Below the pieces are notes generated by a model, which worked only from the letters and a program-made list of their open reading frames with translations, searched no databases and had not been told where the DNA came from. DNA of 45,382 bases from a virus. The stretch covers positions 1 through 45,382 of the IMG/VR virus record IMGVR_UViG_3300029515_000010; one strand, written 5' to 3'. The position numbers and the translations under genes are program-made. Shown here piece by piece: positions 2,483-28,650 of the stretch; positions within the stretch are counted from its first letter, which is position 1; every line of letters begins with the position of its first letter.

Positions 2483-3712
2483 ATACTTAGTCCAGAATAT
2501 TTACGCCGGATAACAGAGGGCAGTGAACAGATTGCGGAAGAGCTGCATCAGTATATCATCTCTGAGATCGTGTCTCGAATGATGACAAGAATCGGCAGAG
2601 GTGAGGATTATATTCTAACCAATGCAGATGCGTGGAGAATCAGAACACTACAGGAATCTGGTGAACTGTTAGAAGACATTCTGGCAGAGCTGTCTAAATA
2701 TACCAAGCGGCAGCAGGAAGAACTAAAAGAGGCGTTTGAAGATGCCGGAATCACTGCCCTCGATTATGATGATAAGATATACAAGGCGGCAGGATTAAGC
2801 CCTGTGCCGCTCGAACAGTCTCCAGTTATGATAAGGCTCATGGAACGGAATATGCTTGCAACCATGGGCGAGTGGAAGAACTTCACGAGAACAACTGCAA
2901 GTGCTGCTCAGGCGTTGTATATCAACCAGTGTGACCTTGTATACAATCATGTGATGACTGGGGCAGTTGGATATACGCAAGCCATCAAAGAGGCGGTTAA
3001 TAACGTTGTGAGTGATGGCGTGACTGTCACATATCCATCTGGCAGAAAAGACACGATCGAAACAGCAGTCGCACGTTCTGTTAGAACTGGCGTGGCTCAG
3101 GCTACTGGAGATATATCCCTCAAACGCATGGAAGAAATGGGCTGGGATTTAGTTCTGGTCAGTGCTCACATGGGAGCCAGAACAGGTGATGGCGGCGAGA
3201 ATCCGGGAAATCACGCATGGTGGCAAGGAAAGATATACTCTCGTTCTGGCAAGAGTAAGAAATTTCCGCCGTTCTCATTAACCGGATATGGAACGGCAAG
3301 TGGACTGTCAGGGGTCAACTGTCGGCATAGTTTTGGGGCAAGTGACGGGGAATTTAACCCCTATGCAGAACTATCAGCACGGGATAAAGCCGACAAGGGA
3401 AAGCAGTACGAAAAGGAACAGCGGCAACGTACTTACGAGCGAAGAATCCGCAAAACAAAGCGCGAAGTCATAGGAATGCAAGCGGCGGTTGATAACTGCA
3501 AGGACGAACAGGCAAAATTCGCATTACAGCAAGACCTTGACCGGAAGTCTTATCTTTTGCAGAAACAAAATGCTGCATATAAGGACTACTGCAAGCAGAA
3601 CGACCTGAGGGAACTGCAAGACCGGCTCATGATCGCTAAGTGGAACCGCCAGAACGCCGCAAAAGCCAGAGGAGCGGCAAAGAGATATAAAACAGCAAAG
3701 GGGATTGACTGA
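2483..3712 (+). CDS. Minor capsid protein (Phage_min_cap2 / SPP1 gp7-like head morphogenesis protein). The start is probably non-canonical ATA.
   Basis: The frame is open from 2477. LSPEYLRRITEGSEQIAEEL matches the family N-terminus M-L-(T/S)-P-x-Y-L as remembered. GAGGTGA sits 7 nt before ATA 2483. The first canonical start is GTG 2570, which would delete about 29 conserved residues. Confidence 0.75.
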   Translation: MLSPEYLRRITEGSEQIAEELHQYIISEIVSRMMTRIGRGEDYILTNADAWRIRTLQESGELLEDILAELSKYTKRQQEELKEAFEDAGITALDYDDKIYKAAGLSPVPLEQSPVMIRLMERNMLATMGEWKNFTRTTASAAQALYINQCDLVYNHVMTGAVGYTQAIKEAVNNVVSDGVTVTYPSGRKDTIETAVARSVRTGVAQATGDISLKRMEEMGWDLVLVSAHMGARTGDGGENPGNHAWWQGKIYSRSGKSKKFPPFSLTGYGTASGLSGVNCRHSFGASDGEFNPYAELSARDKADKGKQYEKEQRQRTYERRIRKTKREVIGMQAAVDNCKDEQAKFALQQDLDRKSYLLQKQNAAYKDYCKQNDLRELQDRLMIAKWNRQNAAKARGAAKRYKTAKGID

Positions 3713-4092
3713 TGGATAGATGGGAGTATTACAACCCGAATCCTGCTGGGAATCGAGTCGGAGATTGTGCTGTCCGGGCAATATGCAAAGCAACCGGTTT
3801 TGATTGGGAAACGGTTTTTGCCGGATTAATGATACAGGCATGTGCCCTGTCAGATATGCCAAGCGCAAATTATGTCTGGGGAGCGTACCTCTATAAACGT
3901 GGGTACAGGCGAAAACTGATTGAGCAATCAGAACGATATATCTATACAGTCAATGATTTTTGCGCAGATCATCAGACAGGCACATACATTCTCTGCATAG
4001 ATGGTCATGTGGTGACAGTACAAGAGGGCAAATATTTCGATACATGGAATAGCGGTAATGAGATCCCGGTATATTACTGGGAAAAGGAGTAG
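3712..4092 (+). CDS. Hypothetical protein, possible papain-fold Cys/His peptidase-like
   Basis: 126 aa. It has GDCAVRAI (Cys) and CIDGHVVTV (His) motifs. Its ATG overlaps the upstream stop (TGATG). Confidence 0.3.
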   Translation: MDRWEYYNPNPAGNRVGDCAVRAICKATGFDWETVFAGLMIQACALSDMPSANYVWGAYLYKRGYRRKLIEQSERYIYTVNDFCADHQTGTYILCIDGHVVTVQEGKYFDTWNSGNEIPVYYWEKE

Positions 4093-4096
4093 CTAA

Positions 4097-4402
4097 ATGA
4101 GCATATCAGAATTTGTACAAGTATTCCTCTCAATCTGCGGAGGGGTGTCCATAGTCGGAGGGGCAGCGGCCGTAATCTTTAAATGGATTACCCCGGCATT
4201 CCGACTTAATAAGCGAGTAGAGACACTGGAAGAACATGATAGACGAGATTATGAAAGTCTTCGGAGAATCGCAGAACGAGATTCATTAATTCTGGAAGTG
4301 TTATCGACTATGCTGGATAGTCAGATCAGTGGAAATAATGTGGAAGAATTAAAAAAAACAAAACAGAAGCTTACAAATTATCTTGCACAGAATCAGCGTT
4401 AA
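4097..4402 (+). CDS. Membrane-anchored coiled-coil protein, function unknown
   Basis: 101 aa. N-terminal hydrophobic helix FLSICGGVSIVGGAAAVIF followed by a charged helical region. GGAG RBS. Confidence 0.5.
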   Translation: MSISEFVQVFLSICGGVSIVGGAAAVIFKWITPAFRLNKRVETLEEHDRRDYESLRRIAERDSLILEVLSTMLDSQISGNNVEELKKTKQKLTNYLAQNQR

Positions 4403-4425
4403 TTGCATTAATAAGGGGTATGCTC

Positions 4426-4626
4426 ATGAAATTATATGTGTTCACAAAGAAAGATATAGACAGATTCTTGATAGAGTGTAATTTCACACCGGACGAAGAA
4501 AGACTGTTCCGGCTGAGATGCAAGGAATATACGCTCGAATACTGTGCTGAGCAGATGAACGTGAGCATATCAACGGCAAAGCGGTTAAGCCGGAGGGTAA
4601 ATAATAAAATAATCAAAGTGTGTTAA
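4426..4626 (+). CDS. Small sigma-70 region-4 / LuxR-type HTH protein
   Basis: 66 aa from the second ATG (AAGGGG RBS 8 nt upstream). The pattern TPDEERLFRLRCKEYTLEYCAEQMNVSISTAKRLSRRV resembles region 4.2 HTH. Confidence 0.5.
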   Translation: MKLYVFTKKDIDRFLIECNFTPDEERLFRLRCKEYTLEYCAEQMNVSISTAKRLSRRVNNKIIKVC

Positions 4627-4756: not shown

Positions 4757-5032
4757 TTATGCAAGTTCTTCAATGTTTCCGGTACGGCAATTTTCAAAAA
4801 TTCCGTCACTTAACTGGCCATTAAATTCACGTTCACATAATTCGGTGCTATCTCTTGTTATCCTGATAATCGAATAAAGATTTGAGCCGGTCTTGTCGGC
4901 GTTCTCTATCTCGATAATTCTCACGCCGTCCTCTTTGCTGCTCCAATCGTATTTTCTTGACGGTGAGAAGCTTTCTTTTAACCGGTGACCGCCATAATTT
5001 CCGCATACTTTCCATGATCTCGTAACTGCCAT
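4757..5032 (-). CDS. Hypothetical small protein. The family is seen in Firmicutes mobile elements, from memory.
   Basis: 91 aa starting at MAVTRSWKV, with a GGGAGGA RBS. The longer track ORF (to 5077) overlaps the upstream gene and lacks an RBS. Confidence 0.6.
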   Translation of the reverse strand: MAVTRSWKVCGNYGGHRLKESFSPSRKYDWSSKEDGVRIIEIENADKTGSNLYSIIRITRDSTELCEREFNGQLSDGIFENCRTGNIEELA

Positions 5033-5034
5033 TT

Positions 5035-5478
5035 TTATTCCTCCCTTATCTGTTCTTCGTATTTTTTTATGAGCCATTCCGGGACCGGTTCGTCTCCGTC
5101 CTCGCCATTGTATTTGATCGGGTCAATGTTGTTTGTGAAGCACCATTCCCAACTGTTGTATTCGCCGTCGCTGTCTTTTGATACGATGTAAAATATATCA
5201 TATTCGCCGTCTACAAATGCCATTGTATCTGTTGCATTCATTGTGTACAACATGATATACATGTTTCTCCTGTATGCGTACGCCATTTCTAGCGGTGAAT
5301 CTTCACCGCCCAGAAATTCCATGAACATTTCAATGTCGGAAGATTCTTTCGACAATTTGTTATAATAATCGTAGACTTTTTCATCCCATCCGTCTGGGAA
5401 AGTTTTACATTCTTCTATTTTCTCGTTATCTTCTTTAGCCATTTTGTAAATGGTTTCAAGTTTTACTCTCTTAATCAT
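5035..5478 (-). CDS. Highly acidic hypothetical protein (candidate DNA-mimic / anti-restriction type)
   Basis: 147 aa with 35 D/E versus 17 K/R by hand count. GGAGGCG RBS. It ends 2 nt before the next gene. Confidence 0.55.
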   Translation of the reverse strand: MIKRVKLETIYKMAKEDNEKIEECKTFPDGWDEKVYDYYNKLSKESSDIEMFMEFLGGEDSPLEMAYAYRRNMYIMLYTMNATDTMAFVDGEYDIFYIVSKDSDGEYNSWEWCFTNNIDPIKYNGEDGDEPVPEWLIKKYEEQIREE

Positions 5479-5490
5479 TTTACACGCCTC

Positions 5491-5664
5491 CTATTTCACT
5501 TCGCAATCTTCCAAGACAGCTCGCTCTAACAGCTGTCTCACATAATCCGGACATTTGCTTTTTCCGGATTCCCAGTTTTCGAGCGTTCTAATCGGTATGT
5601 TGTACCTCCTTGAAAATTCTGCTCGAGATACTTTTAGTCGTTCACGCATTTCTGCTATGGTCAT
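5491..5664 (-). CDS. XRE-family helix-turn-helix protein (57 aa, below the ORF-track cutoff)
   Basis: Hand translation: MTIAEMRERLKVSRAEFSRRYNIPIRTLENWESGKSKCPDYVRQLLERAVLEDCEVK. AGGAGA RBS. It fills the 5479-5679 gap. Confidence 0.7.
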   Translation of the reverse strand: MTIAEMRERLKVSRAEFSRRYNIPIRTLENWESGKSKCPDYVRQLLERAVLEDCEVK

Positions 5665-5679
5665 AGTTTCTATGTCTCC

Positions 5680-5970
5680 TTAATCTTCTATTTTTACCAG
5701 AAAGGCTCTGTGCAACCTTCCTTCTCTGTCACAAGCCGAAAAACATGGCTTCTCGTTTCCACTCAATACGTCGTTAATGGTGTAATTCACTCCCCACGGA
5801 GTCGTTACCATCAACTCACTCATGTAGTTCTCATATAGTTCCCAACCTTCCGGAGTTTCCACCGTGATTTCATCCCAGCAGGTAGCTGTAGGGTTCGGGT
5901 TTCCATATGTGTATACGTTTCTTTTCTCTGCGGCTAATGCGCCGTAATTACAATAAATTTTAATTTTCAT
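5680..5970 (-). CDS. Hypothetical protein
   Basis: 96 aa (MKIKIYCNYGALAAEKRNVYTYG...), tightly packed in the reverse-strand cassette. Confidence 0.55.
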   Translation of the reverse strand: MKIKIYCNYGALAAEKRNVYTYGNPNPTATCWDEITVETPEGWELYENYMSELMVTTPWGVNYTINDVLSGNEKPCFSACDREGRLHRAFLVKIED

Positions 5971-5986
5971 TTTTTTCTCCTTTATT

Positions 5987-6391
5987 TTATTTATGATAAA
6001 CTTCTTTTTTGATTCTCATTGCCATTGCATCGGCATTAATTTTAACTGAAGCATATAATGATTTGTAATAATCAAAACCACTTTTTTTATTATCTTTTAA
6101 ATGATAAATAATATCACCTGCATAAGAATCATTCATAATTGCATTAATCTTTTCAAATGCATCACTAAATATTACTTTCTGATTCTCTGGCACCATACCT
6201 AAAACAATTGAAAACTCTTTATTCATTTTTCTCATAAGCTCTTTAGCCCATGTTACCTGCTTTTCTGTACCTTTCATTGTGCGTTTTGCCTCCTCCCATG
6301 CTTTTTTAAGACCAGAGGAAATTGTCATTGTAGATTTTTTAACCAGTTCCCATGCTCTTTTCATGATTTTTGATAAGTTGTATTTCTTCAT
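5987..6391 (-). CDS. Hypothetical protein, first gene of the reverse-strand cassette
   Basis: 134 aa from MKKYNLSKIMKRAWELVKK, with GGAGG 8 nt upstream. The track ORF's extra N-terminus (to 6544) runs through the promoter. Confidence 0.6.
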   Translation of the reverse strand: MKKYNLSKIMKRAWELVKKSTMTISSGLKKAWEEAKRTMKGTEKQVTWAKELMRKMNKEFSIVLGMVPENQKVIFSDAFEKINAIMNDSYAGDIIYHLKDNKKSGFDYYKSLYASVKINADAMAMRIKKEVYHK

Positions 6392-6421
6392 TTCTGTTTC
6401 CTCCGTTCCTTTGATGATTAT

Positions 6422-6450
6422 ATAATACCACCAAATTGGTGGTATGTCAA
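6422..6450 (-). promoter_or_regulatory. Near-consensus sigma-70-type promoter of the reverse-strand cassette
   Basis: The minus strand reads TTGACA (6450-6445), a 17-nt spacer, then TATTAT (6427-6422). The transcription start would fall about 20 nt before the RBS. Confidence 0.65.
6425..6445. promoter_or_regulatory. Perfect 10-1-10 palindrome (candidate operator) filling the promoter spacer
   Basis: ATACCACCAA-A-TTGGTGGTAT. Confidence 0.6.
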
Positions 6451-6471: not shown

Positions 6472-6527
6472 GTCTGTTTTTTAATTCTTTTTCATGCAAA
6501 AATATAATCAGAAAGGCGGTGTATAAG

Positions 6528-6998
6528 ATGGCACTATATAACAATCCTTATCAATATAGTTTTGGCGTTCCGGGGCAAATGAATCAGTTTCAGCAACAGC
6601 CTGTTCAGATGCCAGCTCAACCAGTGCAACAACCACAGCAGAATAACAATGGCATCCTGTGGGTATCTGGCGAAGTTGGCGCAAAATCCTATCTGGTAGC
6701 ACCCGGAACAAGCGTTTTACTGATGGATAGTGAAAGTGAAAAGTTCTACATAAAATCCACAGACGTTTCCGGTATGCCACAGCCATTACGGACGTTCGAG
6801 TATCACGAAATAGGCACTCAGATGCCGCCTAAACAGCCTGCTCAGAACATGGACAATAAATATGTCACCAGACAGGAATATGACGATTTAAATGGCAAAT
6901 ACGAAGCTATCATAAACCGATTAAATTCTTTTTCTGAACCTGTTAGGGCTAATACCGTGCAGGAATCAGCAGTCAAGGGAGGAAACGCAGATGAGTAA
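6528..6998 (+). CDS. Gln/Pro-rich protein P1, function unknown
   Basis: 156 aa from ATG 6528. The N-terminus is QFQQQPVQMPAQPVQQPQQNNN. A beta-rich core follows: GILWVSGEVGAKSYLVAPGTSVLLMDSESEKFYIKSTDVSGMP. Confidence 0.6.
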   Translation: MALYNNPYQYSFGVPGQMNQFQQQPVQMPAQPVQQPQQNNNGILWVSGEVGAKSYLVAPGTSVLLMDSESEKFYIKSTDVSGMPQPLRTFEYHEIGTQMPPKQPAQNMDNKYVTRQEYDDLNGKYEAIINRLNSFSEPVRANTVQESAVKGGNADE

Positions 6999-7212
6999 TC
7001 CATTATTTAACGCACTTGGCGGTGGGATGCCACAGGGAAATGGACCAATGCAGATGATACAACAGTTTATGCAGTTTAAACAGAATTTTAAGGGAGATCC
7101 GAAAGCAGAAGTCGAGAAAATGTTGCAGTCTGGAAAGATTTCTCAACAGCAGCTCAATCAAGTTCAACAGATGGCAGGACAATTCCAACACATGTTGAAA
7201 GGAATGAAATAG
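6991..7212 (+). CDS. Small Gln/Met-rich protein P2, function unknown
   Basis: 73 aa. GGGAGGA RBS lies inside the end of P1, and the genes overlap by 8 nt. Confidence 0.6.
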   Translation: MSNPLFNALGGGMPQGNGPMQMIQQFMQFKQNFKGDPKAEVEKMLQSGKISQQQLNQVQQMAGQFQHMLKGMK

Positions 7213-7264
7213 TACATTACAATCTGGCCAGATTGATGTAAATACACAAAAAGGAGATTATATT

Positions 7265-8041
7265 ATGGATGGAAATTTAACAGCATCAGACGTTGCTCTT
7301 TTGACCGGGAACAACAGGAATGATGGAATGTTTGGCGGAGATGGCGCATGGTGGCTTATCGTGCTTTTCTTGTTCGCATTTTGCGGATGGGGAAACAACG
7401 GCTGGGGCAATAATGGCAACGGCGGCGGATACGCAGCCACAGCAGCTACTCAGGCAGACATTCAGAGAGGATTCGACAATTCCGCTGTAATTAGCAAACT
7501 TGACGGAATCAACAACGGCCTCTGCGATGGATTCTATGCAGTGAACAACGGTATGCTTACCGGATTTAACGGAATCAACACGAACATCATGCAGACTGGT
7601 TTTGGCATTCAGCAGGCTATTAATGCTGACACCGTAGCTAATATGCAGAATACAAACGCATTGCAGTCTCAGTTAGCTCAGTGTTGCTGCGACAACAGAG
7701 CGGGACAGGCACAGATCAGATACGATATGGCCACTAACGCTTGTGCAATCCAGAACACCATGAACAGCAACACAAGAGACATTATTGACAGCCAGAACGC
7801 AGGAACAAGGGCGATTCTTGATTACCTGTGTAACGAGAAGATTTCTTCCTTACAGGCTGAAAACAATGATCTCAGACGTGCCGCTTCTCAGGATCGCCAG
7901 TCTGCACTTCTCACAACTGCAATGGCTTCACAGACACAGCAGCTCATTAATGCGATTAATCCGGCGCCGATTCCGGCATATCAGGTTCCTAATCCGAACA
8001 CATATTACGGATGCGGATGCAACACTGGATGTAATTGCTGA
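7265..8041 (+). CDS. Single-pass membrane protein P3, Asn/Gln-rich with a Cys-rich C-terminus
   Basis: 258 aa. FGGDGAWWLIVLFLFAFCGWGNNGWGNNGNGGG resembles YjcZ-type tiny sporulation proteins, from memory. It has 36 Asn by hand count, a CCC triplet, and ends YYGCGCNTGCNC. AAAGGAG RBS. Confidence 0.65.
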   Translation: MDGNLTASDVALLTGNNRNDGMFGGDGAWWLIVLFLFAFCGWGNNGWGNNGNGGGYAATAATQADIQRGFDNSAVISKLDGINNGLCDGFYAVNNGMLTGFNGINTNIMQTGFGIQQAINADTVANMQNTNALQSQLAQCCCDNRAGQAQIRYDMATNACAIQNTMNSNTRDIIDSQNAGTRAILDYLCNEKISSLQAENNDLRRAASQDRQSALLTTAMASQTQQLINAINPAPIPAYQVPNPNTYYGCGCNTGCNC

Positions 8042-8104
8042 TAACTTCATATTGAGAGTATCTTTCGATTGATTCGGATGTCGGCTTATGCCGTATTACA
8101 CAGA

Positions 8105-8130
8105 GGGGCAGGCTGAGACCTGTCCTTTTG
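8105..8130 (+). terminator. Rho-independent terminator or attenuator between P3 and P4
   Basis: GGGCAGG (8106-8112) pairs with CCTGTCC (8119-8125), including one G:U pair, then TTTTG. Confidence 0.5.
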
Positions 8131-8151
8131 TGATATGAAAGGAGCATTTTT

Positions 8152-8574
8152 ATGGCAGAATTTACAAATGTAGCTGCTCAGACCGTAGCAGCAAAAGGGA
8201 ATGTAGTATTTTCAAACACAGCAGTTAAAGGCTCTAACTGCATTCAGCACAGAGAGGGAAGTGGAATCATCACGCTGAGAGGACTTACTAACCAGTGCAA
8301 GGCTAGATTTTTCGTGGACTTCTCTGGCAATATCGCGATTCCAGCAGGCGGTACAGTTGAAGCTATCTCTTTGGCAATTGCAATCTCTGGAGAACCAGTA
8401 TTATCTTCTCAGATGATTTCCACACCGGCAGCAGTAGATCAGTATAATAATGTGTCTTCCGGAATTTACGTGGATGTACCTCGTGGATGTTGCGTTAATA
8501 TCGCAGTAGAGAACACAAGCGATCAGGCTATTTCTGTTGCGAATGCAAACATTGTTGTGACCAGAGAAGCGTAG
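8152..8574 (+). CDS. Beta-rich protein P4, possibly a C1q/TNF-like jelly roll as in exosporium BclA/BxpB C-terminal domains
   Basis: 140 aa with no TM and a CC pair. The alternating pattern IITLRG...RFFVDFSGNIAIPAGG...VSSGIYVDVPRGCCVNIAV...ANIVVTR gives only a weak resemblance, from memory. Confidence 0.55.
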   Translation: MAEFTNVAAQTVAAKGNVVFSNTAVKGSNCIQHREGSGIITLRGLTNQCKARFFVDFSGNIAIPAGGTVEAISLAIAISGEPVLSSQMISTPAAVDQYNNVSSGIYVDVPRGCCVNIAVENTSDQAISVANANIVVTREA

Positions 8575-8585
8575 GAGGTGTGATT

Positions 8586-9143
8586 ATGAGAGATATTAAA
8601 GACTTATGCGCAAGAATCGAAGATGAACTTTCCAAAATCGCTGATAATGGACTGACCACTGGAAATCTGGAAATGACATATAAGTTGATTGATATGTATA
8701 AAGATATCAAGAATACGCAGTACTGGGACAAGAAAGTGGAATATTACAACACTGTTCTTGATGAGATGCGTGGTGGCGGATACAATGACGATTACAGCGA
8801 ACGCGGAAGAAAGCGTGATAGCATGGGGAGATACAGCTCAAATGATGGCAGAATGATGCCGGATTACGACCGGGGCAATTCTTATGCCAGACGTGGCGAG
8901 CATTATGTCAGAGGGCATTACAGTCGTTCTGATGGACGAGACGCTTACGATGACTATATGACGCAGAAGCAAAGCTATCGTTCCGGTAAGTCCGAGGACT
9001 GCAAAAGGAAGATGCTTGCCGCTCTGGAAGAACATCTGGATGAACTCACAACAGAAATGAGCGATATGTCTAAAGATGCGGAGTGCCGGGAGGAACGCGA
9101 TCTTGTCAAGAGATATGTAGAAAAACTCCGGGATATGCTTTAA
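8586..9143 (+). CDS. Protein P5 with a central Arg/Ser/Tyr/Asp/Gly low-complexity region, function unknown
   Basis: 185 aa from ATG 8586 (GGAGG 7 nt upstream). Helical ends flank RGRKRDSMGRYSSNDGRMMPDYDRGNSYARRGEHYVRGHYSRSDGRDAYDDY. Confidence 0.6.
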   Translation: MRDIKDLCARIEDELSKIADNGLTTGNLEMTYKLIDMYKDIKNTQYWDKKVEYYNTVLDEMRGGGYNDDYSERGRKRDSMGRYSSNDGRMMPDYDRGNSYARRGEHYVRGHYSRSDGRDAYDDYMTQKQSYRSGKSEDCKRKMLAALEEHLDELTTEMSDMSKDAECREERDLVKRYVEKLRDML

Positions 9144-9190: not shown

Positions 9191-9263
9191 GTAATTGTGC
9201 AGCAGGAAGCACAACGGTTGTTTTAACATTTTCGTTTTATCCTCCTTTCTTAAAGTAGCTGGT

Positions 9264-9314
9264 ACACACGCTTTAGCGGAAAGTTTTAAACAGGTTCGAA
9301 TCCTGTCGTGTGTA
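9264..9314 (+). ncRNA. tRNA-like minihelix with an acceptor stem and T-arm but no anticodon arm. It may be a degenerate tRNA or a small RNA.
   Basis: ACACACG (9264-9270) pairs with CGUGUGU (9307-9313). The T-arm is ACAGG-UUCGAAU-CCUGU (9290-9306). Only 19 nt lie between the acceptor stem and the T-arm. Confidence 0.4.
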
Positions 9315-9457: not shown

Positions 9458-9530
9458 TGGAATATAGCTCAGTTGGTAGAGCATCTGACTGTTAATCAGA
9501 GTGTCACAGGTTCGATTCCTGTTATTCCAG
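9458..9530 (+). tRNA. tRNA-Asn (anticodon GUU)
   Basis: Hand-folded cloverleaf. Acceptor UGGAAUA/UAUUCCA. D-arm GCUC-AGUUGGUA-GAGC. Anticodon stem UCUGA/UCAGA with loop CUGUUAA (GUU at 9491-9493). T-arm ACAGG-UUCGAUU-CCUGU. Discriminator G. CCA is not encoded. Confidence 0.85.
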
Positions 9531-9607: not shown

Positions 9608-10240
9608 ATGCAGAAACTTATTGACACATTAAAATCATTTGGAATTGAAATCCCGGAGGATAAGCAGGCAGATGTTAAAAAGGCACTCTCTGAGCATTAT
9701 AAGAATGCTAAGGAAGTTGCAAAAACCCTGTCGAAAGTCGAGGGAGAACGTGATAACTGGAAAGAACGTGCTGAGACAGCAGAAGAAACCTTAAAAGGGT
9801 TTGACGGTATCGATCCGGCGAACATTCAGACAGAGCTTGCTGAATGGAAGAAAAAAGCCGAGGATGCAGAAAAAGAGTTTAATGCAAAAATCTACGACCG
9901 TGATTTTTCAGATGCACTCAAAGCGGCACTCGATGATGTTAAGTTTTCCAGTGAAGCAGCTAAGAAGTCTGTTATGGCAGACATCAAGGAAGCAGGTCTT
10001 AAGCTGAAAGATGGTAAAATCCTTGGGCTGAACGACCTGATTGAACAGATGAAACAGTCTGACGCATCCGCTTTTGTGGATGAATCTCAGCAGCAGGCTC
10101 AGCAGAACCAGGCAAGATTTACCACTCGCGTTGGACAGCAGCAGACACCAGGAAGTATGACTAAGAAAGATATTGAAGCGATCAAAGACTCGTCCGAGAG
10201 ACAGGCTGCAATTGCTCAGAATATCCAGTTATTCCAGTGA
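9608..10240 (+). CDS. Capsid scaffolding protein
   Basis: 210 aa, highly charged and helical (KERAETAEETLK..., Q-rich tail), immediately upstream of the major capsid gene. AGGAGG RBS. Confidence 0.75.
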   Translation: MQKLIDTLKSFGIEIPEDKQADVKKALSEHYKNAKEVAKTLSKVEGERDNWKERAETAEETLKGFDGIDPANIQTELAEWKKKAEDAEKEFNAKIYDRDFSDALKAALDDVKFSSEAAKKSVMADIKEAGLKLKDGKILGLNDLIEQMKQSDASAFVDESQQQAQQNQARFTTRVGQQQTPGSMTKKDIEAIKDSSERQAAIAQNIQLFQ

Positions 10241-10318: not shown

Positions 10319-11488
10319 ATGGCAGCAAAAGCTAATCTTATTATGACAAATGATATCCAGGTCACAGCACGTGAGATTGACTTCGTCACCAGATTTGAAA
10401 GAAACTGGCAGCACTTACGTGATATTCTGGGCATCATGAGACCTATCAAAAAACAGCCGGGTGCTGTACTCAAGTCCAAATACGCAGAGGGTACTTTGCA
10501 GAGCGGAAATGTTGGTGAGGGTGAGGAAATCCCTTACAGCAAGTTTACTGTAAAAGAAAAGACCTATGTGGAAATGACTATTGAAAAGTACGCAAAGGCT
10601 GTATCTATCGAAGCAATCAAGGATCACGGTTATGAGAACGCTGTTCAGATGACTGATGATGAATTCCTTTTCCAGCTTCAGACTGACGTTACCGGCAGAT
10701 TCTATGATTATCTGAAAACTGGTACGCTTACTTCCACAGAAACAACATTCCAGATGGCTCTGGCAATGGCTAAGGGTCGTGTTGAGAATAAATTCAAGCA
10801 GATGCACAGAAATGTGACTGGCGTCGCTGGATTTGTGAACATTCTGGACGTATATGAATATCTTGGCGCAGCTGAAATCACTATTCAGAACCAGTTCGGA
10901 TTCCAGTATATGAAGGACTTTATGGGATTCAACACAATCTTTTTACTGTCTGACAGCGAAATCCCGAGAGGACAGGTTATCGCCACCCCTGTCGAGAACA
11001 TCGTTATGTACTATGTTGACCCGAACGAATCTGACTTTGCGAGAGCTGGTCTTGTATACACTGTATCCGGCGAAACAAATCTGATCGGATTCCATACACA
11101 GGGCAACTACCACACAGCAGTGTCTGAAGCGTTTGCAGTAATGGGACTTACTCTTTTTGCGGAGTACATTGATGCAATCGCAGTAATCACCATTGATGAG
11201 ACGCCAACACTTGGCACTCTGACAGTAAATTCCGTGGCTGGAACAGCAAGTGGCGATACAAAAATCACTGTAAATCCGGCTAAAGAAAATACCAACAACG
11301 TATATAAATACAAAGTTGCAACAGACGCAGTAACTGTTGGATATGGACAGAATCTCAGAAACTGGACTACATGGGACGGAAAAGCTGATATTAAGGCAGC
11401 AACCGGACAGAAGATTACAGTGGTTGAGTGCGATGGAACATACAAGGCACTGAACGCCGGAAGTGCAAGCGTAACAGCGAAATCATAA
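10319..11488 (+). CDS. Major capsid protein with a C-terminal Ig-like domain
   Basis: 389 aa after the scaffold gene. The last ~95 aa (TLTVNSVAGTASGDTKITVNPAKE...KITVVECDGTYKALNAGSASVTA) look like a Big_2-type Ig fold. Confidence 0.8.
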   Translation: MAAKANLIMTNDIQVTAREIDFVTRFERNWQHLRDILGIMRPIKKQPGAVLKSKYAEGTLQSGNVGEGEEIPYSKFTVKEKTYVEMTIEKYAKAVSIEAIKDHGYENAVQMTDDEFLFQLQTDVTGRFYDYLKTGTLTSTETTFQMALAMAKGRVENKFKQMHRNVTGVAGFVNILDVYEYLGAAEITIQNQFGFQYMKDFMGFNTIFLLSDSEIPRGQVIATPVENIVMYYVDPNESDFARAGLVYTVSGETNLIGFHTQGNYHTAVSEAFAVMGLTLFAEYIDAIAVITIDETPTLGTLTVNSVAGTASGDTKITVNPAKENTNNVYKYKVATDAVTVGYGQNLRNWTTWDGKADIKAATGQKITVVECDGTYKALNAGSASVTAKS

Positions 11489-12006: not shown

Positions 12007-12234
12007 ATGAAATGCAGACAATGCGGGAAAGAACTTAAACCACATTGGAGTACAGATATTTGTCTTGAGTGCTCAAGAGAAAATATGAAAAAGATATTTA
12101 GAGAAAACCCCGAAGTGAAACAGGCATTCCGTGAAACTATTGAAGAACTTAAAAAGCCTGAAAACATTGCGAAAATGGCTAAAAATACTGCCGGTTTTAT
12201 GAGTGCTATTCAGGCATTAAGGAGTGATAAATAA
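12007..12234 (+). CDS. Small zinc-ribbon protein
   Basis: 75 aa from ATG 12007, with CRQCG ... CLEC. GTG 12001 is an alternative start. Confidence 0.5.
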   Translation: MKCRQCGKELKPHWSTDICLECSRENMKKIFRENPEVKQAFRETIEELKKPENIAKMAKNTAGFMSAIQALRSDK

Positions 12235-12503
12235 TGGACATTTCAACATTAGGCTCATGCGTAGCAATCGTGATGATCTGTTACATCGTAGGAATGGGCT
12301 GTAAAGCATCAAAAAGGATATCTGATGAATGGATTCCGGTAACCATGGCGATTACTGGTGGGATTCTCGGAGCGGTCGGAATGGGAATTATCCCGGATTT
12401 CCCGGCAACAGACTATATCACGGCGGTTGCAGTCGGTATGTTTAACGGATTGTCGGCCACTGGTGTGAATCAGATTATTAAGCAGACAGTGCAGAAAGAA
12501 TAA
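12234..12503 (+). CDS. Holin (Hol44 / Phage_holin_5_2-like)
   Basis: 89 aa with hydrophobic helices. WIPVTMAITGGILGAVG...AVAVGMFNGLSATGVNQIIKQ matches the remembered family signature. Confidence 0.65.
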   Translation: MDISTLGSCVAIVMICYIVGMGCKASKRISDEWIPVTMAITGGILGAVGMGIIPDFPATDYITAVAVGMFNGLSATGVNQIIKQTVQKE

Positions 12504-25707: not shown

Positions 25708-27135
25708 ATGACAACTGAACAAAAAAACGTCCTGAGAAAGATTATTTATGCAGTCGAAACCGGTGGACAGGTTTACGGACAGCAGGATTATTCGGACTTC
25801 ACAGAAGCTTACACCAATTCTTCTGAAGAACACGCAATTACAATCGGTGCAGGAGCATGGTACGCAACCGAAGCGCAAACGCTTTTAAAGCGGATTCATG
25901 ATGCAGATACGGAAGCATGGAACCGACTGGATAATATCGGATTATGGGAGCAGGTGCAGGAGGCAGATTGGTCTTGTTTTAATATTTCCAGAAACAGCCA
26001 GTTTGCAAATTTAATCGTACGGCTCATATCGTCCAAAACAGGCGTTAAATGCCAAGACGGCCTTATGGATGAACAATTAGCCACTTATGCAGATGAAGCC
26101 CTTAAACAGGGCGTTGCTGACGCCAGAGCACAAGCTATGTGTGTGAACTTTAGGCACCAAGGTGGGCAGGGAGCAGTAACGAGGATTCTGGCAAAGACTA
26201 AGAAACCATATACGCTCGATAATCTCTATGTAGCCTGCCAGACCGATACGGGAAACCAAGTCGGGGCATATAAGAGCCGGCAGAGATTTGTTTATAACGC
26301 ATTAAAGACATATTTCCCAGAAAGTGAGAATAAGGGCATGAACGCAATTGACAAATTAATCCAGATTGCAAAGAATGAAATTGGATATCTCGAAAAGGCA
26401 AGCAATAGTCAGCTTGATAGCAAGACAGCAAATGCAGGTTCCAATAACTATACAAAATATTGGAGAGATGTAAAGTCATCTTATCAAGGGCAGCCATGGT
26501 GTGCCGGCTTTGTGAGTTGGTGCTTCATGAAAGCTTTTGGACAGGAGAAAGCAAAGGAACTCTTAAAACACTGGCCTTATGTGTACTGTCCGACAATGGC
26601 GGATTTATTTACTTTGAACAGCAATCCAAAAGTTGGGGATATTGTTATTTTTTATAGAAACGGTGTGTTCGCGCACACCGGAATTGTAATTAAGGTGTCA
26701 GGAAATCGGTTCTGGACAGTCGAAGGGAATACTTCTGGTGGCTCTACAATTATCGCAAATGGTGGTGGAGTATGTCAGAAAAGCTACTACAACAGCAACC
26801 TTCCCGGAACAAAATTCTGCACTCCAAATTACAGTTTAGTTAAAAATACAACGTCAGTTTCAGGCTCAGATACAGTAAAAAAGCAGAACACCAGAGCCTA
26901 CATTGCGCAGATTAAAAAAGATACAAAATGTTATGCAAAATCAAGCAAAAATAGCCCATCTAAACTGTTTCCAAAGCTGAAAAAAGGTGCAGTTGTAGAG
27001 GTAATGAAGTACACAGAAACAGACAGTTCGGGATTGAAATGGTACTTCATACGCATCCCTTATCCAAATGATGATGGGTTCGTATTTGAGTTTGTCCCGA
27101 AGGGCGTATTTACCAGAATTTCAGAAATTTCATAA
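25708..27135 (+). CDS. Endolysin: N-terminal domain of unclear type, a CHAP domain and a C-terminal SH3-like wall-binding domain
   Basis: 475 aa. CHAP signature QGQPWCAGFVSWCF ... GDIVIFYRNGVFAHTGIV...WTVEGNTS. The C-terminus KKGAVVEVMKYTETDSSGLKWYFIRIP is SH3b-like. Confidence 0.8.
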   Translation: MTTEQKNVLRKIIYAVETGGQVYGQQDYSDFTEAYTNSSEEHAITIGAGAWYATEAQTLLKRIHDADTEAWNRLDNIGLWEQVQEADWSCFNISRNSQFANLIVRLISSKTGVKCQDGLMDEQLATYADEALKQGVADARAQAMCVNFRHQGGQGAVTRILAKTKKPYTLDNLYVACQTDTGNQVGAYKSRQRFVYNALKTYFPESENKGMNAIDKLIQIAKNEIGYLEKASNSQLDSKTANAGSNNYTKYWRDVKSSYQGQPWCAGFVSWCFMKAFGQEKAKELLKHWPYVYCPTMADLFTLNSNPKVGDIVIFYRNGVFAHTGIVIKVSGNRFWTVEGNTSGGSTIIANGGGVCQKSYYNSNLPGTKFCTPNYSLVKNTTSVSGSDTVKKQNTRAYIAQIKKDTKCYAKSSKNSPSKLFPKLKKGAVVEVMKYTETDSSGLKWYFIRIPYPNDDGFVFEFVPKGVFTRISEIS

Positions 27136-27468: not shown

Positions 27469-28650
27469 TTAGTCACAGTTAGTCACAAATGGGACTTTTA
27501 TCTTTTCAATCTCTGTACGGAGTTCTTCCAATGTCCGGTGACCATAAACGGCGTTTGTAACATCACCGCCGAATGAATGGCCGAGCATCCGTTTTCGGTC
27601 GTTCTCCCGGACGCCGTATTTTTCGCACAGCGCAGAAAAGGTGTGTCGACAATCGTGCGGCGTGTGCTTCGGATCACCGACTATTCCTAAGCGTTCCAGT
27701 GTAGGATAGAACAACGCTTTTCTGTGATGCTGCTGAGTATATACGCATAGTTTTCCATCTTGTGTCAGTACTTTCTGTTCGACAAAACGGTATATAGCGG
27801 GATGTATCGGAACAATTCTGTTTTTACCGGCTTTTGTTTTGATGCCGCCTTGAAAGTATCCTTCTTCTAAGTTGGTCGTAAGTTTTAGCACTTCACCGAT
27901 TCTCCAGCCGGAGTAACACATAATAAGAATGAGCTGCACTTCTGGATCGTCGGTATTATTCCACAGCACTTGCATTTCCTGATCAGAAAAGGGTGTTCCA
28001 TGTTCGGTGTCATTATCAGCATTGACATGGACATATAACGCCTTATTTTCCGTTACGATTTCTGAGTAAACAGCATATTTATACATCTGCTTGAACAGCG
28101 TAAGGATCGCCATAAGACTCTGACGTTTTAACGGGCAGTCATCAATGACTTTTTGCAGATCAGGTGCTTTTAAATCCTCGAATACACGATTATACAGAGC
28201 CGTGCAGTTTGAGTAAGCGGTCTGGTAAGCTATCTTTGAGCTATAAGAAAGTTTTGAACCCTCCGGAAACTTCCATGCGTAAAACTTCTCATATACCTCT
28301 GAAAACGTCAATTTCTTGATTTCCGGGTGTTTATCCTCGACACCCTTGATTGTATTGTAGTCAGCGATCAAACGAGTAACAAGGGTATCTACGTCCGTTG
28401 TAGGTGATATCTCAAGGTCTCGTTCCATCCCTGGCTGATATGTTCCTGCCTTGTATGCGGTCAGTACAGTAAATCCTTTAATCCAGTCGTCTACATAGCA
28501 GATTGCAGGCGGTCGGACGGGCTTTCCGGTCTTTTCATCCAGCACTGCCGGAGGATGGACCGCAAACGGATTTCTGCGATTGCCGCCCAGGTACCGTATT
28601 GTTCCGAAACTGTTAGGGAGTTTCGGGTATTTCTTTCTTTTCTTCGCCAT
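27469..28650 (-). CDS. int: Tyrosine integrase
   Basis: 393 aa. C-terminal catalytic region SGWRIGEV ... HDCRHTF ... MLGHS ... VYGHRT (R, HxxR, H and Y residues). Confidence 0.9.
   Translation of the reverse strand: MAKKRKKYPKLPNSFGTIRYLGGNRRNPFAVHPPAVLDEKTGKPVRPPAICYVDDWIKGFTVLTAYKAGTYQPGMERDLEISPTTDVDTLVTRLIADYNTIKGVEDKHPEIKKLTFSEVYEKFYAWKFPEGSKLSYSSKIAYQTAYSNCTALYNRVFEDLKAPDLQKVIDDCPLKRQSLMAILTLFKQMYKYAVYSEIVTENKALYVHVNADNDTEHGTPFSDQEMQVLWNNTDDPEVQLILIMCYSGWRIGEVLKLTTNLEEGYFQGGIKTKAGKNRIVPIHPAIYRFVEQKVLTQDGKLCVYTQQHHRKALFYPTLERLGIVGDPKHTPHDCRHTFSALCEKYGVRENDRKRMLGHSFGGDVTNAVYGHRTLEELRTEIEKIKVPFVTNCD

What the first reader, a model, noticed from the sequence alone, without database searches (positions are those of the whole stretch)
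6528..9143. Five-gene cassette of Asn/Gln-rich, Cys-rich, low-complexity proteins inside the head module, with no recognisable phage function
Five co-oriented genes with strong RBSs sit between the minor-capsid and scaffold genes, where related gene orders have nothing.
- P1 has a Gln/Pro-rich N-terminus and a beta-rich core.
- P2 is a 73-aa Gln/Met-rich protein.
- P3 is a single-pass membrane protein. Its GGxG-hydrophobic-GWGNNGWGNNGNGGG start resembles YjcZ-type tiny sporulation proteins. It has 36 Asn of 258 by hand count, a CCC triplet, and the tail YYGCGCNTGCNC.
- P4 is a beta-rich 140-aa protein with a CC pair. Its strand pattern recalls the C1q/TNF-like jelly rolls of exosporium proteins BclA and BxpB.
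- P5 has helical ends around an Arg/Ser/Tyr/Asp/Gly-rich core.

I recognise none of them as a capsid, decoration or lysis family. The composition (Cys cross-linking motifs, Tyr/Arg/Ser-rich region, C1q-like fold) is what one sees in spore-coat or exosporium layers. A phage-borne spore-surface or envelope-assembly cargo is one hypothesis. Internal virion or ejection proteins, or condensate-forming proteins, are alternatives.
Basis: partly seen in the sequence, partly recalled or inferred. Interest (0 to 1): 0.8.

Follow-up and report, generated by a model that had tools for sequence, protein, structure and literature searches.

The report
Widespread gut-phage membrane stalk-and-head gene cassette
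Five real, strongly conserved phage genes of unknown function form a mobile cassette, common in gut viruses, that encodes a membrane-anchored helical stalk protein, a C1q/TNF-like "head" protein shaped like spore-surface proteins, and three low-complexity proteins.

Summary
Five co-oriented ORFs with ribosome-binding sites lie at 6528-9143, and the hand counts are exact (P3 has 36 Asn of 258, a CCC triplet and a Cys-rich tail). They evolve under purifying selection as strong as the scaffold and capsid genes (dN/dS 0.02-0.11).

None matches Pfam, NCBIfam, PADLOC or PDB sequences. Each has its own "unknown function" PHROG.

- **P4:** its model is confident (pLDDT 90.7) and is a C1q/TNF jelly roll.
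- **P3:** it has an acidic N-tail, one Trp-flanked membrane helix, a Gly/Asn linker, a helix of more than 100 residues and a Cys-rich tail. Its family has about 2,250 clusters at 50% identity.
- **Synteny:** the order P1-P2-P3-(P4 or an unrelated Cys-rich beta protein)-P5 recurs in about 90 diverse loci, at varying genome positions. It often follows a small LuxR/GerE-type regulator.

P3-based cassettes also occur in Bacteroides and crAss-like phages and in viruses assigned to Methanomassiliicoccales. The full block occurs in a Butyrivibrio phage. A spore-specific role is therefore unlikely.

My best reading is a regulator-driven late module that builds a membrane-anchored stalk-and-head assembly. 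Its function is still unproven.

The parts
3712..4092 (+). 126-aa protein of phrog_3754 with conserved DCxxRA ... GH ... DTW motifs (Cys/His peptidase-like by eye). A recurrent co-oriented neighbour of the cassette.
   Evidence: PHROG hit at E 4e-34, no Pfam hit. The same family flanks the cassette in 32 of 92 diverse loci. Present in 75 close relatives.
4097..4402 (+). 101-aa protein with an N-terminal membrane helix and a charged, probably coiled-coil C-terminal part. Belongs to the extended module in this lineage.
   Evidence: Hydrophobic segment at residues 9-27. Conserved at a median 97% identity and dN/dS 0.03 in relatives. An analogous 77-aa TM plus coiled-coil family (phrog_1863) lies upstream of cassettes in 7 other loci.
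4420..4626 (+). 68-aa stand-alone HTH regulator of the sigma-70 region 4 / LuxR-GerE type. Probable regulator of the cassette.
   Evidence: phrog_1190 'RNA polymerase sigma factor' at E 2e-6. Sigma70_r4 hit below cut-off. A homologue in L132 passes the Pfam GerE cut-off (28.3 bits against 23.5). An HTH gene of this kind lies upstream of P1 in 26 diverse loci, and 92-148 nt upstream of P1 in 51 of 77 close relatives.
6488..6508 (+). Promoter-like motif TTTTTCATGCAAAAATATAAT just upstream of the P1 ribosome-binding site.
   Evidence: The same motif, T-run / TGCnAAAATAT(N)A directly after a terminator hairpin, precedes P1 in the divergent loci L001, L118, L154 and L171. There is no sigma-70 -35 element and the consensus scan did not call it. 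Function is inferred only.
6528..6998 (+). P1: Gln/Pro/Asn/Tyr-rich N-terminal low-complexity region, a conserved core of about 55 aa, and a C-terminal amphipathic helix region.
   Evidence: phrog_21718 at E 1e-38. Family found in 76 of 92 loci, almost always two genes before P3. dN/dS 0.07. No Pfam or PDB hit.
6991..7212 (+). P2: 73-aa Gln/Met-rich small protein.
   Evidence: phrog_22984 at E 5e-27. P2 or its divergent form P2alt lies immediately before P3 in 67 loci. dN/dS 0.03.
7265..8041 (+). P3: anchor of the cassette. An acidic N-tail of about 28 aa, one Trp-flanked hydrophobic helix (29-42), a Gly/Asn/Trp linker, helices at 73-107 and 123-231, the QCCC motif, the SQxxQ and PxPAY motifs, and a Cys-rich C-terminal tail.
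   Evidence: phrog_16490 at E 6e-57. More than 8,000 clusters at 90% identity and 2,252 clusters at 50% identity. Motifs seen in alignment A5. CCC in 91 of 99 family members and at least 2 Cys in the last 15 residues in 81 of 99; N-tail K+R 0.55 against D+E 2.9. AF2 model of low confidence (pLDDT 54), but with the helix at 150-200 at 78-87.
8152..8574 (+). P4: free-standing C1q/TNF-type beta jelly roll with conserved C30, H33, C49 and C113-C114.
   Evidence: AF2 pLDDT 90.7, pTM 0.82. Foldseek against PDB: 9h38 F-BclA C-terminal domain at E 1e-7 and TM 0.77, then BclA, BxpB, ExsFA, EDA and C1q. In BFVD there are many stand-alone gut-phage proteins of 130-143 aa with TM up to 0.89. phrog_20016. 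dN/dS 0.04.
8580..9143 (+). Probable true start at the ATG at 8586.
   Evidence: phrog_28802 at E 1e-64. Family found in 71 of 92 loci, 2-3 genes after P3. dN/dS 0.02. No significant Pfam or PDB hit.
9195..9224 (+). Weak terminator-like hairpin and T-run downstream of P5.
   Evidence: Consensus scan only. Not more frequent than in shuffled sequence.
9458..9530 (+). tRNA-Asn(GTT) between the cassette and the scaffold gene. It fits the Asn- and AAC-rich P3 but is not a conserved part of the cassette.
   Evidence: ARAGORN and Rfam, 75.7 bits. P3 uses AAC for 23 of 36 Asn codons, against 39% AAC in 21 reference genes. Most other cassette loci have no adjacent tRNA, or a different one.

Best explanation
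**What is shown**
- P1-P5 are five real, strongly constrained genes. They form the core of a self-contained, horizontally mobile accessory module of gut phages.
- In this lineage the module also includes a Cys/His peptidase-like gene, a membrane plus coiled-coil gene and a small LuxR/GerE/sigma-region-4-type regulator upstream (3712-4626).
- P4 has a C1q/TNF jelly-roll fold.
- P3 is a single-hydrophobic-segment protein with a very long helix and conserved Cys motifs.
- The position after P3 is filled by either P4 or a second, unrelated Cys-rich beta protein.

**What is inferred**
- P3 inserts in the host cytoplasmic membrane with its short acidic N-tail outside and its helical stalk inside. 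None of the partners has a signal peptide, which fits this orientation.
- P3 stalks carry P4 (a fold that normally trimerises) or the alternative beta protein at their Cys-rich ends. The link would be through cysteines or bound metal.
- P1, P2 and P5 (Gln/Met-rich and Arg/Tyr/Asp/Gly-rich) act as matrix or assembly factors.
- The small regulator, expressed from the late operon, switches the cassette on from a non-canonical promoter in front of P1. The assembly would then form very late in infection, on the inner face of the membrane.

This is a membrane-anchored stalk-and-head lattice. In composition and fold it resembles spore-coat and exosporium material, but it is not tied to sporulation. 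It is not a capsid, scaffold, holin or endolysin component.

Its biological role is not established. My ranking is an envelope- or egress-stage role in the infected cell first, a virion fibre second, and spore modification third.
For: - **Real and constrained genes:**
- **No known family:**
- **Conserved synteny:** P1-P2-P3-(P4|P4alt)-P5 in about 90 diverse loci, with P3 as the constant element.
- **Mobility between genome positions:** head module in the window and Dulem virus 35; near lysis genes in Ceridwen, bajarodcaudo virus 5, Dulem 33 and Dulem 40; after the receptor-binding protein in Dulem 36; next to a recombinase or attP; beside anti-repressor and recombination genes in C. perfringens phage HMD-PC1.
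- **P4 fold:**
- **P3 architecture and charge bias:**
- **Regulator upstream, and a shared terminator-plus-motif in front of P1 in divergent loci:**
- **Separate lysis genes:** a holin candidate at 12234-12503 and a CHAP endolysin at 25708-27135 show that the phage has its own lysis genes.
- **Hosts with three different envelope types:** this points to the cytoplasmic membrane as the common site of action.
Against: - No experiment or expression data supports any of this.
- The P3 model is poor (pLDDT 54) and its structure search returned nothing.
- The topology rests on a weak charge bias only.
- No P3-P4 complex could be modelled, and trimerisation was not tested.
- The partner genes of the Bacteroides and crAss-like cassettes are not detectably homologous to P1, P4 or P5, so only P3 links them.
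- C1q/TNF heads on helical stalks are typical of virion fibres.
- In this lineage the cassette lies among head genes and is as constrained as they are. That fits a structural role equally well.
- The promoter motif is a by-eye observation on five loci.
Confidence: 0.4

Rival explanations
1. **Virion fibre or decoration.** P3 would be a trimeric coiled-coil shaft whose hydrophobic N-terminus is buried in the capsid or neck. P4 or the alternative beta protein would be the exchangeable distal knob. P1, P2 and P5 would be assembly chaperones or minor parts.
For: - The cassette lies between the minor-capsid and scaffold genes here and in Dulem virus 35, and next to capsid genes in crAss-like cr116_1.
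- dN/dS equals that of the capsid genes.
- The P4 fold also matches phage fibre tips and knobs (8ke9, 9eul, fibritin-like and collagen/C1q proteins of viruses).
- Other annotators labelled P3 homologues 'outer capsid protein/viral fiber' or 'spike protein'.
- Swapping of the tip gene resembles swapping of receptor-binding modules.
Against: - P3 has a conserved Trp-flanked hydrophobic segment of 14-15 residues after an acidic tail. This looks like a membrane helix, which is unusual for fibres of tailed phages.
- The cassette moves to non-structural positions, such as next to a recombinase or beside anti-repressor and recombination genes.
- It brings its own regulator and, apparently, its own promoter and terminator.
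- No PHROG structural annotation exists for any of the five.
Confidence: 0.2
2. **Sporulation-linked cargo.** In spore-forming Clostridia the cassette would be expressed in the mother cell. It would add coat- or exosporium-like material to the spore, or interfere with its assembly.
For: - P4 is closest in structure to F-BclA, BclA, BxpB and ExsFA.
- The regulator is a stand-alone HTH of about 70 aa of the GerE/LuxR type, like the B. subtilis coat-gene regulator GerE (the GerE comparison is from my own knowledge).
- The proteins lack signal peptides, as coat proteins do.
- Most prophage hosts are Lachnospiraceae, Oscillospiraceae and Ruminococcaceae.
- In a Lachnospira relative, the cassette abuts a prophage junction inside a truncated sigF/sigG-like sigma gene.
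Against: - The full block is in a phage of Butyrivibrio fibrisolvens.
- P3 cassettes are in Bacteroides and crAss-like phages and in archaeal viruses.
- No sequence homology to any coat or exosporium family was found.
- Here the cassette is embedded in the late head-gene cluster.
- A survey of sporulation genes in gut phages lists no coat or exosporium genes (PMC10294663). That survey was homology-based and could not have seen these proteins.
Confidence: 0.12
3. **Membrane-level defence or egress device.** The assembly would act at the cytoplasmic membrane either to block DNA entry of other phages (superinfection exclusion) or to assist the last step of release, for example through membrane remodelling or control of lysis timing.
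For: - P3 is membrane-anchored, and a second membrane plus coiled-coil gene lies in the module.
- The cassette is often placed right after holin and endolysin genes, or at the prophage end where conversion genes sit.
- Its layout (terminator, promoter, genes) is moron-like.
- It occurs in hosts that share only a cytoplasmic membrane.
Against: - Known exclusion proteins are single small proteins, not five-gene sets with abundant low-complexity proteins.
- There is no hit in PADLOC.
- The phage already has a holin candidate and an endolysin.
- No o-spanin-like lipoprotein partner is present, and most hosts have a single membrane.
Confidence: 0.15

Closest known systems
BclA / F-BclA C-terminal domains and BxpB/ExsFA of the Bacillus exosporium and F-type endospore appendages
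   Same: P4's predicted structure is the same C1q/TNF jelly roll (Foldseek E 1e-7 to 1e-5, TM 0.67-0.77). Like BxpB/ExsFA it is a free-standing domain of about 140 aa without a signal peptide.
   Different: Sequence identity is 11-14%, with no Pfam or profile hit. P4 has no collagen-like stalk and no exosporium-targeting leader. It is encoded by phages, including phages of non-sporulating hosts. Its conserved Cys/His pattern (C30, H33, C49, CC113-114) is its own.
TNF-superfamily ligands (type II membrane proteins: N-terminal anchor, stalk, C-terminal TNF homology trimer). Own knowledge.
   Same: The overall parts list matches: an N-terminal membrane anchor, an extended stalk and a TNF-like head.
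   Different: Here the anchor plus stalk (P3) and the head (P4) are separate, adjacent genes. The orientation is probably the reverse (stalk in the cytoplasm). The head can be replaced by an unrelated Cys-rich beta protein. No homology was detected.
Phage 'morons' such as HK97 gp15 and lambda bor/lom (autonomous promoter-gene-terminator units inside late operons). Own knowledge.
   Same: The cassette is an insertion at variable places in otherwise collinear phage genomes. A terminator and a promoter-like motif lie in front of P1, and a weak terminator follows P5.
   Different: It has five to eight genes rather than one. It has a dedicated regulator. Its purifying selection equals that of the capsid genes. 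It also occurs in crAss-like phages, which are generally regarded as virulent.
Spanins (Rz-type i-spanin: N-terminal membrane helix, coiled-coil domain with Cys that forms intermolecular disulfides). Own knowledge.
   Same: P3 has an N-terminal membrane helix, long helices separated by a linker, conserved cysteines and a Pro-rich C-terminal region.
   Different: Most hosts have one membrane. There is no lipoprotein partner. P3 is about twice as long. Its partners are cytoplasmic-type proteins. No homology was found.
B. subtilis late coat regulon (GerE regulator; the Gln-rich substrate GerQ cross-linked by the small Cys-protease-fold transglutaminase Tgl; Cys-rich CotY/ExsY). Own knowledge; see also PMC6490927.
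   Same: There is an analogy of parts: a stand-alone GerE/LuxR-type HTH, Gln-rich proteins (P1, P2), a small Cys/His enzyme-like protein (3712-4092), Cys-rich proteins and a C1q-like protein.
   Different: No sequence homology to GerQ, Tgl, CotY or ExsY was detected. The transglutaminase idea is a lead from memory and was not tested.

Membership tests
C1q/TNF-like jelly-roll proteins (BclA C-terminal domain, BxpB/ExsFA, C1q, TNF) | Ten-stranded beta jelly roll of C1q/TNF topology | tested here: met
   AF2 model with pLDDT 90.7. Foldseek probability 1.0 and TM up to 0.77 to 9h38, 1wck, 8d02, 7r1m, 1rj7 and 1pk6.
C1q/TNF-like jelly-roll proteins (BclA C-terminal domain, BxpB/ExsFA, C1q, TNF) | Sequence-profile membership (Pfam or NCBIfam models, or PDB sequence profiles) | tested here: not met
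   No Pfam or NCBIfam hit at E <= 1. phmmer and hmmsearch against PDB sequences found nothing relevant. Identity in the structural alignments is 11-14%.
C1q/TNF-like jelly-roll proteins (BclA C-terminal domain, BxpB/ExsFA, C1q, TNF) | Homotrimer | not testable with these tools
   Only monomer prediction was available.
BclA-type exosporium glycoproteins | N-terminal exosporium-targeting leader and collagen-like GXX repeats before the C-terminal domain | tested here: not met
   The P4 sequence starts directly with the jelly roll (strand at residues 2-6) and has no GXX repeats.
YjcZ family sporulation proteins (for the P3 N-terminus) | Match to the NCBIfam/TIGRFAM model, and a tiny protein of about 40-50 aa | tested here: not met
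   No NCBIfam hit at E <= 1. P3 is 258 aa. The resemblance is limited to a Gly-flanked hydrophobic segment.
Holins | Small membrane protein encoded with the endolysin, and the only candidate pore former | tested here: not met
   P3 is 258 aa with one hydrophobic segment and lies 17 kb from the CHAP endolysin. A two-TM, 89-aa holin candidate exists at 12234-12503. Other cassette-bearing phages have separately annotated holins.
Spanins | Inner-membrane coiled-coil subunit paired with an outer-membrane lipoprotein, in hosts with two membranes | tested here: not met
   I saw no signal-peptide or lipobox-like N-terminus in the P1, P2, P4 or P5 sequences (read by eye). Most hosts are Bacillota.
Phage head decoration, scaffold or ejection protein families | Profile hit to a family annotated as such | tested here: not met
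   All five hit only PHROGs of unknown function, and Pfam gave none. In contrast, the neighbours hit Phage_min_cap2, Phage_scaffold and major-head PHROGs in the same calls.
Anti-phage defence systems (PADLOC) | Profile hit to a component of a known or candidate defence system | tested here: not met
   No hit at E <= 1 for any of the five.
Morons (autonomous transcription units in late operons) | Own promoter upstream and terminator downstream | tested here: inconclusive
   A terminator hairpin followed by the shared TGCnAAAATAT motif lies upstream of P1 in five divergent loci. There is only a weak terminator-like site after P5, and no canonical sigma-70 promoter.
Spore-coat / exosporium cargo of spore-forming hosts | Restriction to phages of sporulating hosts | tested here: not met
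   The full block is in Butyrivibrio virus Ceridwen. P3 cassettes are in Bacteroides phage C3_41T2LP, crAss-like phages and Methanomassiliicoccales viruses.

The most novel reading that the evidence does not exclude
Phages of gut anaerobes, in bacteria and archaea alike, carry a portable 'coat kit'. It would be a regulator-driven set of self-assembling proteins: a membrane anchor with stalk, a C1q-like head, and Gln-, Cys- and Arg/Tyr-rich matrix proteins. Late in infection these would build a spore-coat/exosporium-like layer on the host membrane, cross-linkable through cysteines. Oxidation on leaving the anoxic gut might trigger the cross-linking. The layer could protect, aggregate or target progeny virions, much like an occlusion body. 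In sporulating hosts it could re-tool the spore surface.
Probability: 0.1. Interest if true: 0.9.

Novelty: categorically new. Interest (0 to 1): 0.66.

Why it matters
The P3 family alone has about 2,250 clusters at 50% identity and more than 8,000 at 90% identity. It occurs in sipho-like prophages of the dominant gut Clostridia, in crAss-like and Bacteroides phages, and in viruses of gut methanogens. Even so, none of its genes has a name, a Pfam family or a described function.

A module this common, this mobile and as constrained as capsid genes must matter for phage fitness in the gut. It brings a spore-surface fold (C1q/TNF, BclA/ExsFA-like) and coat-like chemistry into phage biology.

It also comes with cultured phage-host pairs in which it can be deleted: Butyrivibrio virus Ceridwen, several C. 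perfringens phages and Bacteroides phage C3_41T2LP. Whatever the answer (a membrane assembly, a virion fibre or a dormancy-linked function), it would annotate thousands of 'hypothetical' genes in gut viromes.

Tried and rejected
- **Profile and sequence searches with no usable hit.** I ran Pfam, NCBIfam, PADLOC and PDB-sequence searches on all five proteins, on the alternative partner proteins and on family profiles.
- **Homology between cassette variants.** Profile-profile comparison (hhalign) of P4 against the alternative Cys-rich beta protein and the crAss-type partner found nothing. The same was true for P1, P2 and P5 against their positional counterparts in crAss-like and Bacteroides cassettes. 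Only P3 links those cassettes, together with P1 within Bacillota phages.
- **P3 structure.** Only homologues of 74% identity or more were allowed into the alignment. The resulting model was poor and its Foldseek search returned nothing.
- **P3 as the holin.** Rejected, because a two-TM holin candidate exists elsewhere in the window and other cassette phages carry their own holins.
- **tRNA-Asn as part of the cassette.** Rejected, because other lineages have no adjacent tRNA or a different one.
- **Ferritin-like reading of long P5-position proteins.** This was a by-eye impression that Pfam did not support. One alternative occupant of the P5 position carries DUF7841.
- **Domain fusions in the P3 family.** None is informative. 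The 399-aa outlier looks like an assembly chimera.
- **Literature.** Searches for the crAss 'spike/fibre' annotation, YjcZ, phage BclA/C1q proteins, C. perfringens phage proteomes and Bacteroides phage C3_41T2LP found nothing on these genes.

Full report
**1. The observation**

The window is a temperate siphovirus-type genome. It carries the end of the large terminase gene, the portal (498-1943) and an SPP1 gp7-like minor capsid protein (2570-3712, PF06152). Further on are the scaffold (9608-10240, PF06810), the major capsid protein (10319-11488), tail genes, a CHAP endolysin (25708-27135) and a tyrosine integrase (27469-28650, minus strand).

The hand counts are exact. P3 has 36 Asn of 258 residues, 11 Cys, the CCC triplet and the tail YYGCGCNTGCNC. 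P2 has 15 Gln and 9 Met of 73. P5 has 24 Asp, 20 Arg and 16 Tyr of 187.

Against about 80 close relatives from viral metagenomes, the five genes show dN/dS of 0.02-0.11. The scaffold (0.05) and the major capsid protein (0.06) fall in the same range. These are real protein-coding genes under strong purifying selection, not chance ORFs.

**2. What else lies in the interval**

The interval between the minor capsid and scaffold genes holds more than the five genes.

- Three further + strand genes follow the minor capsid gene:
  - a phrog_3754 protein with Cys/His motifs (3712-4092);
  - a 101-aa protein with an N-terminal membrane helix and a charged tail (4097-4402);
  - a 68-aa sigma-region-4 / LuxR-type HTH protein (4420-4626).
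- A minus-strand block (4757-6391) follows. It is driven by a near-consensus promoter at 6450-6422.
- In 51 of 77 close relatives that block is absent, and the HTH gene ends 92-148 nt before P1. The block is therefore a lineage-specific insertion at a hot spot.
- Downstream of P5 lie a weak terminator-like hairpin, a truncated tRNA-like element (9264-9314) and tRNA-Asn(GTT) (9458-9530).

**3. No known family by sequence**

None of the five proteins matches Pfam, NCBIfam, PADLOC or any PDB sequence at meaningful E-values. Each matches its own PHROG of unknown function: 21718, 22984, 16490, 20016 and 28802. The neighbouring genes hit the expected head families in the same searches, so the lack of hits is not a technical failure.

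**4. P4 is a C1q/TNF jelly roll**

With an alignment of 71 homologues, AlphaFold2 gave a confident all-beta model (pLDDT 90.7, pTM 0.82).

Foldseek against the PDB ranks these matches first:
- the C-terminal domain of F-BclA, the tip fibrillum of F-type endospore appendages of B. thuringiensis (9h38, E 1e-7, TM 0.77);
- BclA (1wck), BxpB (8d02) and ExsFA (7r1m);
- TNF-family EDA and C1q heads;
- at slightly weaker scores, phage fibre tips and knobs (8ke9, 9eul).

Against predicted viral structures, the best matches are stand-alone uncharacterised proteins of 130-143 aa from gut sipho-, myo- and podoviruses.

At the level of sequence family it is not met, because identity is 11-14% and no profile hit exists. 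P4 also lacks the collagen-like stalk and leader of BclA.

**5. P3 is the constant element**

P3 has the following layout:
- an N-tail of about 28 aa;
- one hydrophobic segment flanked by Trp and Gly (WWLIVLFLFAFCGW);
- a Gly/Asn/Trp linker;
- predicted helices at 73-107 and 123-231;
- the invariant motifs QxCCC and SQxxQ;
- a Pro-rich PxPAY motif;
- a terminal Cys-rich tail.

The model as a whole is poor (pLDDT 54), and its structure search returned nothing. I use it only for secondary structure.

Across 99 representatives, the N-tail averages 0.55 Lys+Arg against 2.9 Asp+Glu. CCC is present in 91, and at least two Cys lie in the last 15 residues in 81.

The family is very large. More than 8,000 clusters at 90% identity shared words with the query. 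An exhaustive profile search found 2,252 clusters at 50% identity with E <= 1e-3, of which 300 have E <= 1e-30. Almost all are 230-300 aa and none has an informative fusion.

**6. The cassette is conserved, modular and mobile**

I collected 92 diverse loci: annotated phages, and prophages in species-representative genomes. I classified their ORFs with iterated profiles.

- The dominant order is P1, P2 (or its divergent form P2alt), P3, then P4 or an unrelated beta protein with an N-terminal Cys cluster (P4alt, consensus MACKxVCxLC...), then P5.
- P4 occupies the slot after P3 in 46 loci and P4alt in 34. The two are not detectably homologous (P4alt alignment).
- Recurrent co-oriented neighbours are:
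  - the phrog_3754 protein (32 loci);
  - a small LuxR/GerE/sigma-r4 HTH protein (26 loci; one member passes the Pfam GerE cut-off);
  - a small HExxH metallopeptidase-like protein (23 loci);
  - a helical protein of about 110 aa (18 loci);
  - a DUF7841 protein with an Arg/Gly/Tyr-rich N-terminal half, sometimes in place of P5.
- The position of the cassette in the phage genome varies:
  - inside the head module (this window and Dulem virus 35);
  - downstream of, though not always adjacent to, lysis genes (Ceridwen, bajarodcaudo virus 5, Dulem 33 and 40);
  - after the receptor-binding protein (Dulem 36);
  - next to an integrase or serine recombinase (about 20 loci);
  - beside anti-repressor and recombination genes in C. 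perfringens phage HMD-PC1.
- In several divergent loci the HTH gene is followed by a terminator hairpin and then a shared motif (T-run, TGCnAAAATAT) just before the P1 ribosome-binding site. The window has the same motif at 6488-6508.

This layout suggests a regulator-controlled transcription unit. It is an inference from sequence only.

**7. Hosts**

The closest cellular match is a prophage of Lachnospira intestinalis (75% identity for P3). Other prophage hosts are mostly Lachnospiraceae, Oscillospiraceae, Ruminococcaceae, Acutalibacteraceae and Erysipelotrichaceae-type Bacilli.

The complete P1-P5 block is present in Butyrivibrio virus Ceridwen, isolated on B. fibrisolvens. The P4alt variant is in six C. 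perfringens phages.

P3 homologues also head a differently composed cassette in three other groups. That cassette is P3, a Cys-containing beta protein, a beta plus coiled-coil protein, and a short Arg/Asp/Tyr/Glu-rich protein. The groups are:
- Bacteroides phage C3_41T2LP, plaque-isolated on B. uniformis;
- many crAss-like phages;
- Caudoviricetes assigned to Methanomassiliicoccales.

These partners resemble P4, P1 and P5 in type but not in detectable sequence.

**8. Interpretation**

The common denominator of hosts with one membrane, two membranes and archaeal envelopes is the cytoplasmic membrane. P3 has a membrane-helix-like segment after a short, acidic, almost Lys/Arg-free tail. Such tails are typically translocated, which would leave the long helical domain in the cytoplasm. 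None of P1, P2, P4 or P5 has a signal peptide.

I therefore think the products assemble on the cytoplasmic face of the membrane. P3 would act as anchor and stalk. P4 (a fold that normally forms trimers) or the alternative beta protein would sit at or near its Cys-rich end. The Gln/Met-rich (P1, P2) and Arg/Tyr/Asp/Gly-rich (P5) proteins would serve as matrix or assembly factors.

Cysteine chemistry, either metal binding in the reducing cytoplasm or disulfides after release, is a plausible cross-linker.

The parts list is strikingly like that of spore coats and exosporia: a stand-alone GerE-type regulator, Gln-rich and Cys-rich proteins, a small Cys/His enzyme-like protein and a BclA/ExsFA-like fold. 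The analogy is compositional and structural, not homologous. The host range argues against a function restricted to sporulation.

The phage has its own holin candidate (12234-12503, two membrane helices) and its own endolysin, so the cassette is not the basic lysis system.

**9. Rivals**

- **Virion fibre.** The position among head genes in this lineage, the capsid-like constraint, the fibre-like stalk-and-knob logic and the exchangeable tip all fit. The membrane-type segment, the dedicated regulator and the frequent non-structural positions argue against it.
- **Sporulation-linked role.** This remains possible for Bacillota lineages. In the Lachnospira relative, the cassette lies directly at the prophage junction, next to an ORF that begins in the middle of a sigF/sigG-like sigma factor (AIPMIIGEIKRYLRD...). 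This suggests insertion into a sporulation sigma gene.
- **Membrane-level exclusion or egress.** This would fit the frequent placement after lysis genes or at prophage ends.

None of these can be decided without experiments.

**10. Novelty**

I found no description of these genes in the literature. Annotators of crAss-like genomes labelled P3 homologues 'spike protein/glycoprotein' or 'outer capsid protein/viral fiber', presumably from coiled-coil similarity. A survey of sporulation genes in gut phages lists regulators, partition genes and hydrolases but no coat or exosporium genes (PMC10294663).

As a system the cassette matches nothing described. As parts, it contains one known fold and one common type of regulator.

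Noticed in passing
window 9264-9314 (+): A truncated tRNA-like element lies 144 nt upstream of tRNA-Asn. It has a 7-bp acceptor stem (ACACACG/CGTGTGT) and a canonical T-arm (GGTTCGAATCC) but no anticodon arm. The Rfam tRNA score is 19.9 bits, below the gathering score. The fold z-score is -2.1.
   Followed up: partly
window 9458-9530 and 7265-8041: tRNA-Asn(GTT) sits next to the Asn-rich P3. P3 uses AAC for 23 of its 36 Asn codons (64%), against 39% AAC in 21 other genes of the window. The adjacency is not conserved in other cassette lineages. Two of those instead have tRNA-Cys, and two have tRNA-Ile(TAT), after P5.
   Followed up: yes
window 4757-6450 (minus strand): A minus-strand block includes an XRE-type HTH gene (5491-5664) and is driven by a near-consensus extended -10 promoter (6450-6422). 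It interrupts the + strand gene run. It is absent, or replaced by other cargo, in most close relatives. The HTH/P1 junction is therefore an insertion hot spot.
   Followed up: partly
window 12234-12503 (+): A holin candidate of 89 aa with two membrane helices lies just after the head-tail connector gene, 13 kb from the CHAP endolysin (25708-27135). No holin lies next to the endolysin. Dulem virus 35 has an annotated holin at the equivalent place.
   Followed up: partly
window 10319-11488 (+): The major capsid protein carries a C-terminal domain of about 85 aa that matches the Ig-like S-layer SbsC C-terminal domain (PF18316, E 5e-15).
   Followed up: no
L174 7398-8030 (relative from the Lachnospira intestinalis group); L175, L176: In a relative that uses a large serine recombinase, the cassette lies directly beside attP. 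In the integrated form it abuts an ORF that starts in the middle of a sigF/sigG-like sigma factor (AIPMIIGEIKRYLRD...; only regions 3 and 4 remain). This suggests a prophage inserted into a sporulation sigma gene. The other junction was not examined.
   Followed up: partly
L089 6178-6729 (Dulem virus 33); L126, L154, L158, L170, L171: In several loci an extra gene or a 1-2 kb insert sits inside the cassette. It lies between P2 and P3 in Dulem virus 33 (an annotated endonuclease on the opposite strand) and between P3 and P4 in the other loci. An HNH/GIY-like 220-aa family recurs there. This looks like homing-endonuclease traffic within the cassette.
   Followed up: no
L173 3152-4186 (Caudoviricetes sp. 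vir215, Methanomassiliicoccales): In the archaeal virus, three genes upstream of the P3 homologue is a reverse transcriptase gene (phrog_1423). It may belong to a diversity-generating retroelement.
   Followed up: no
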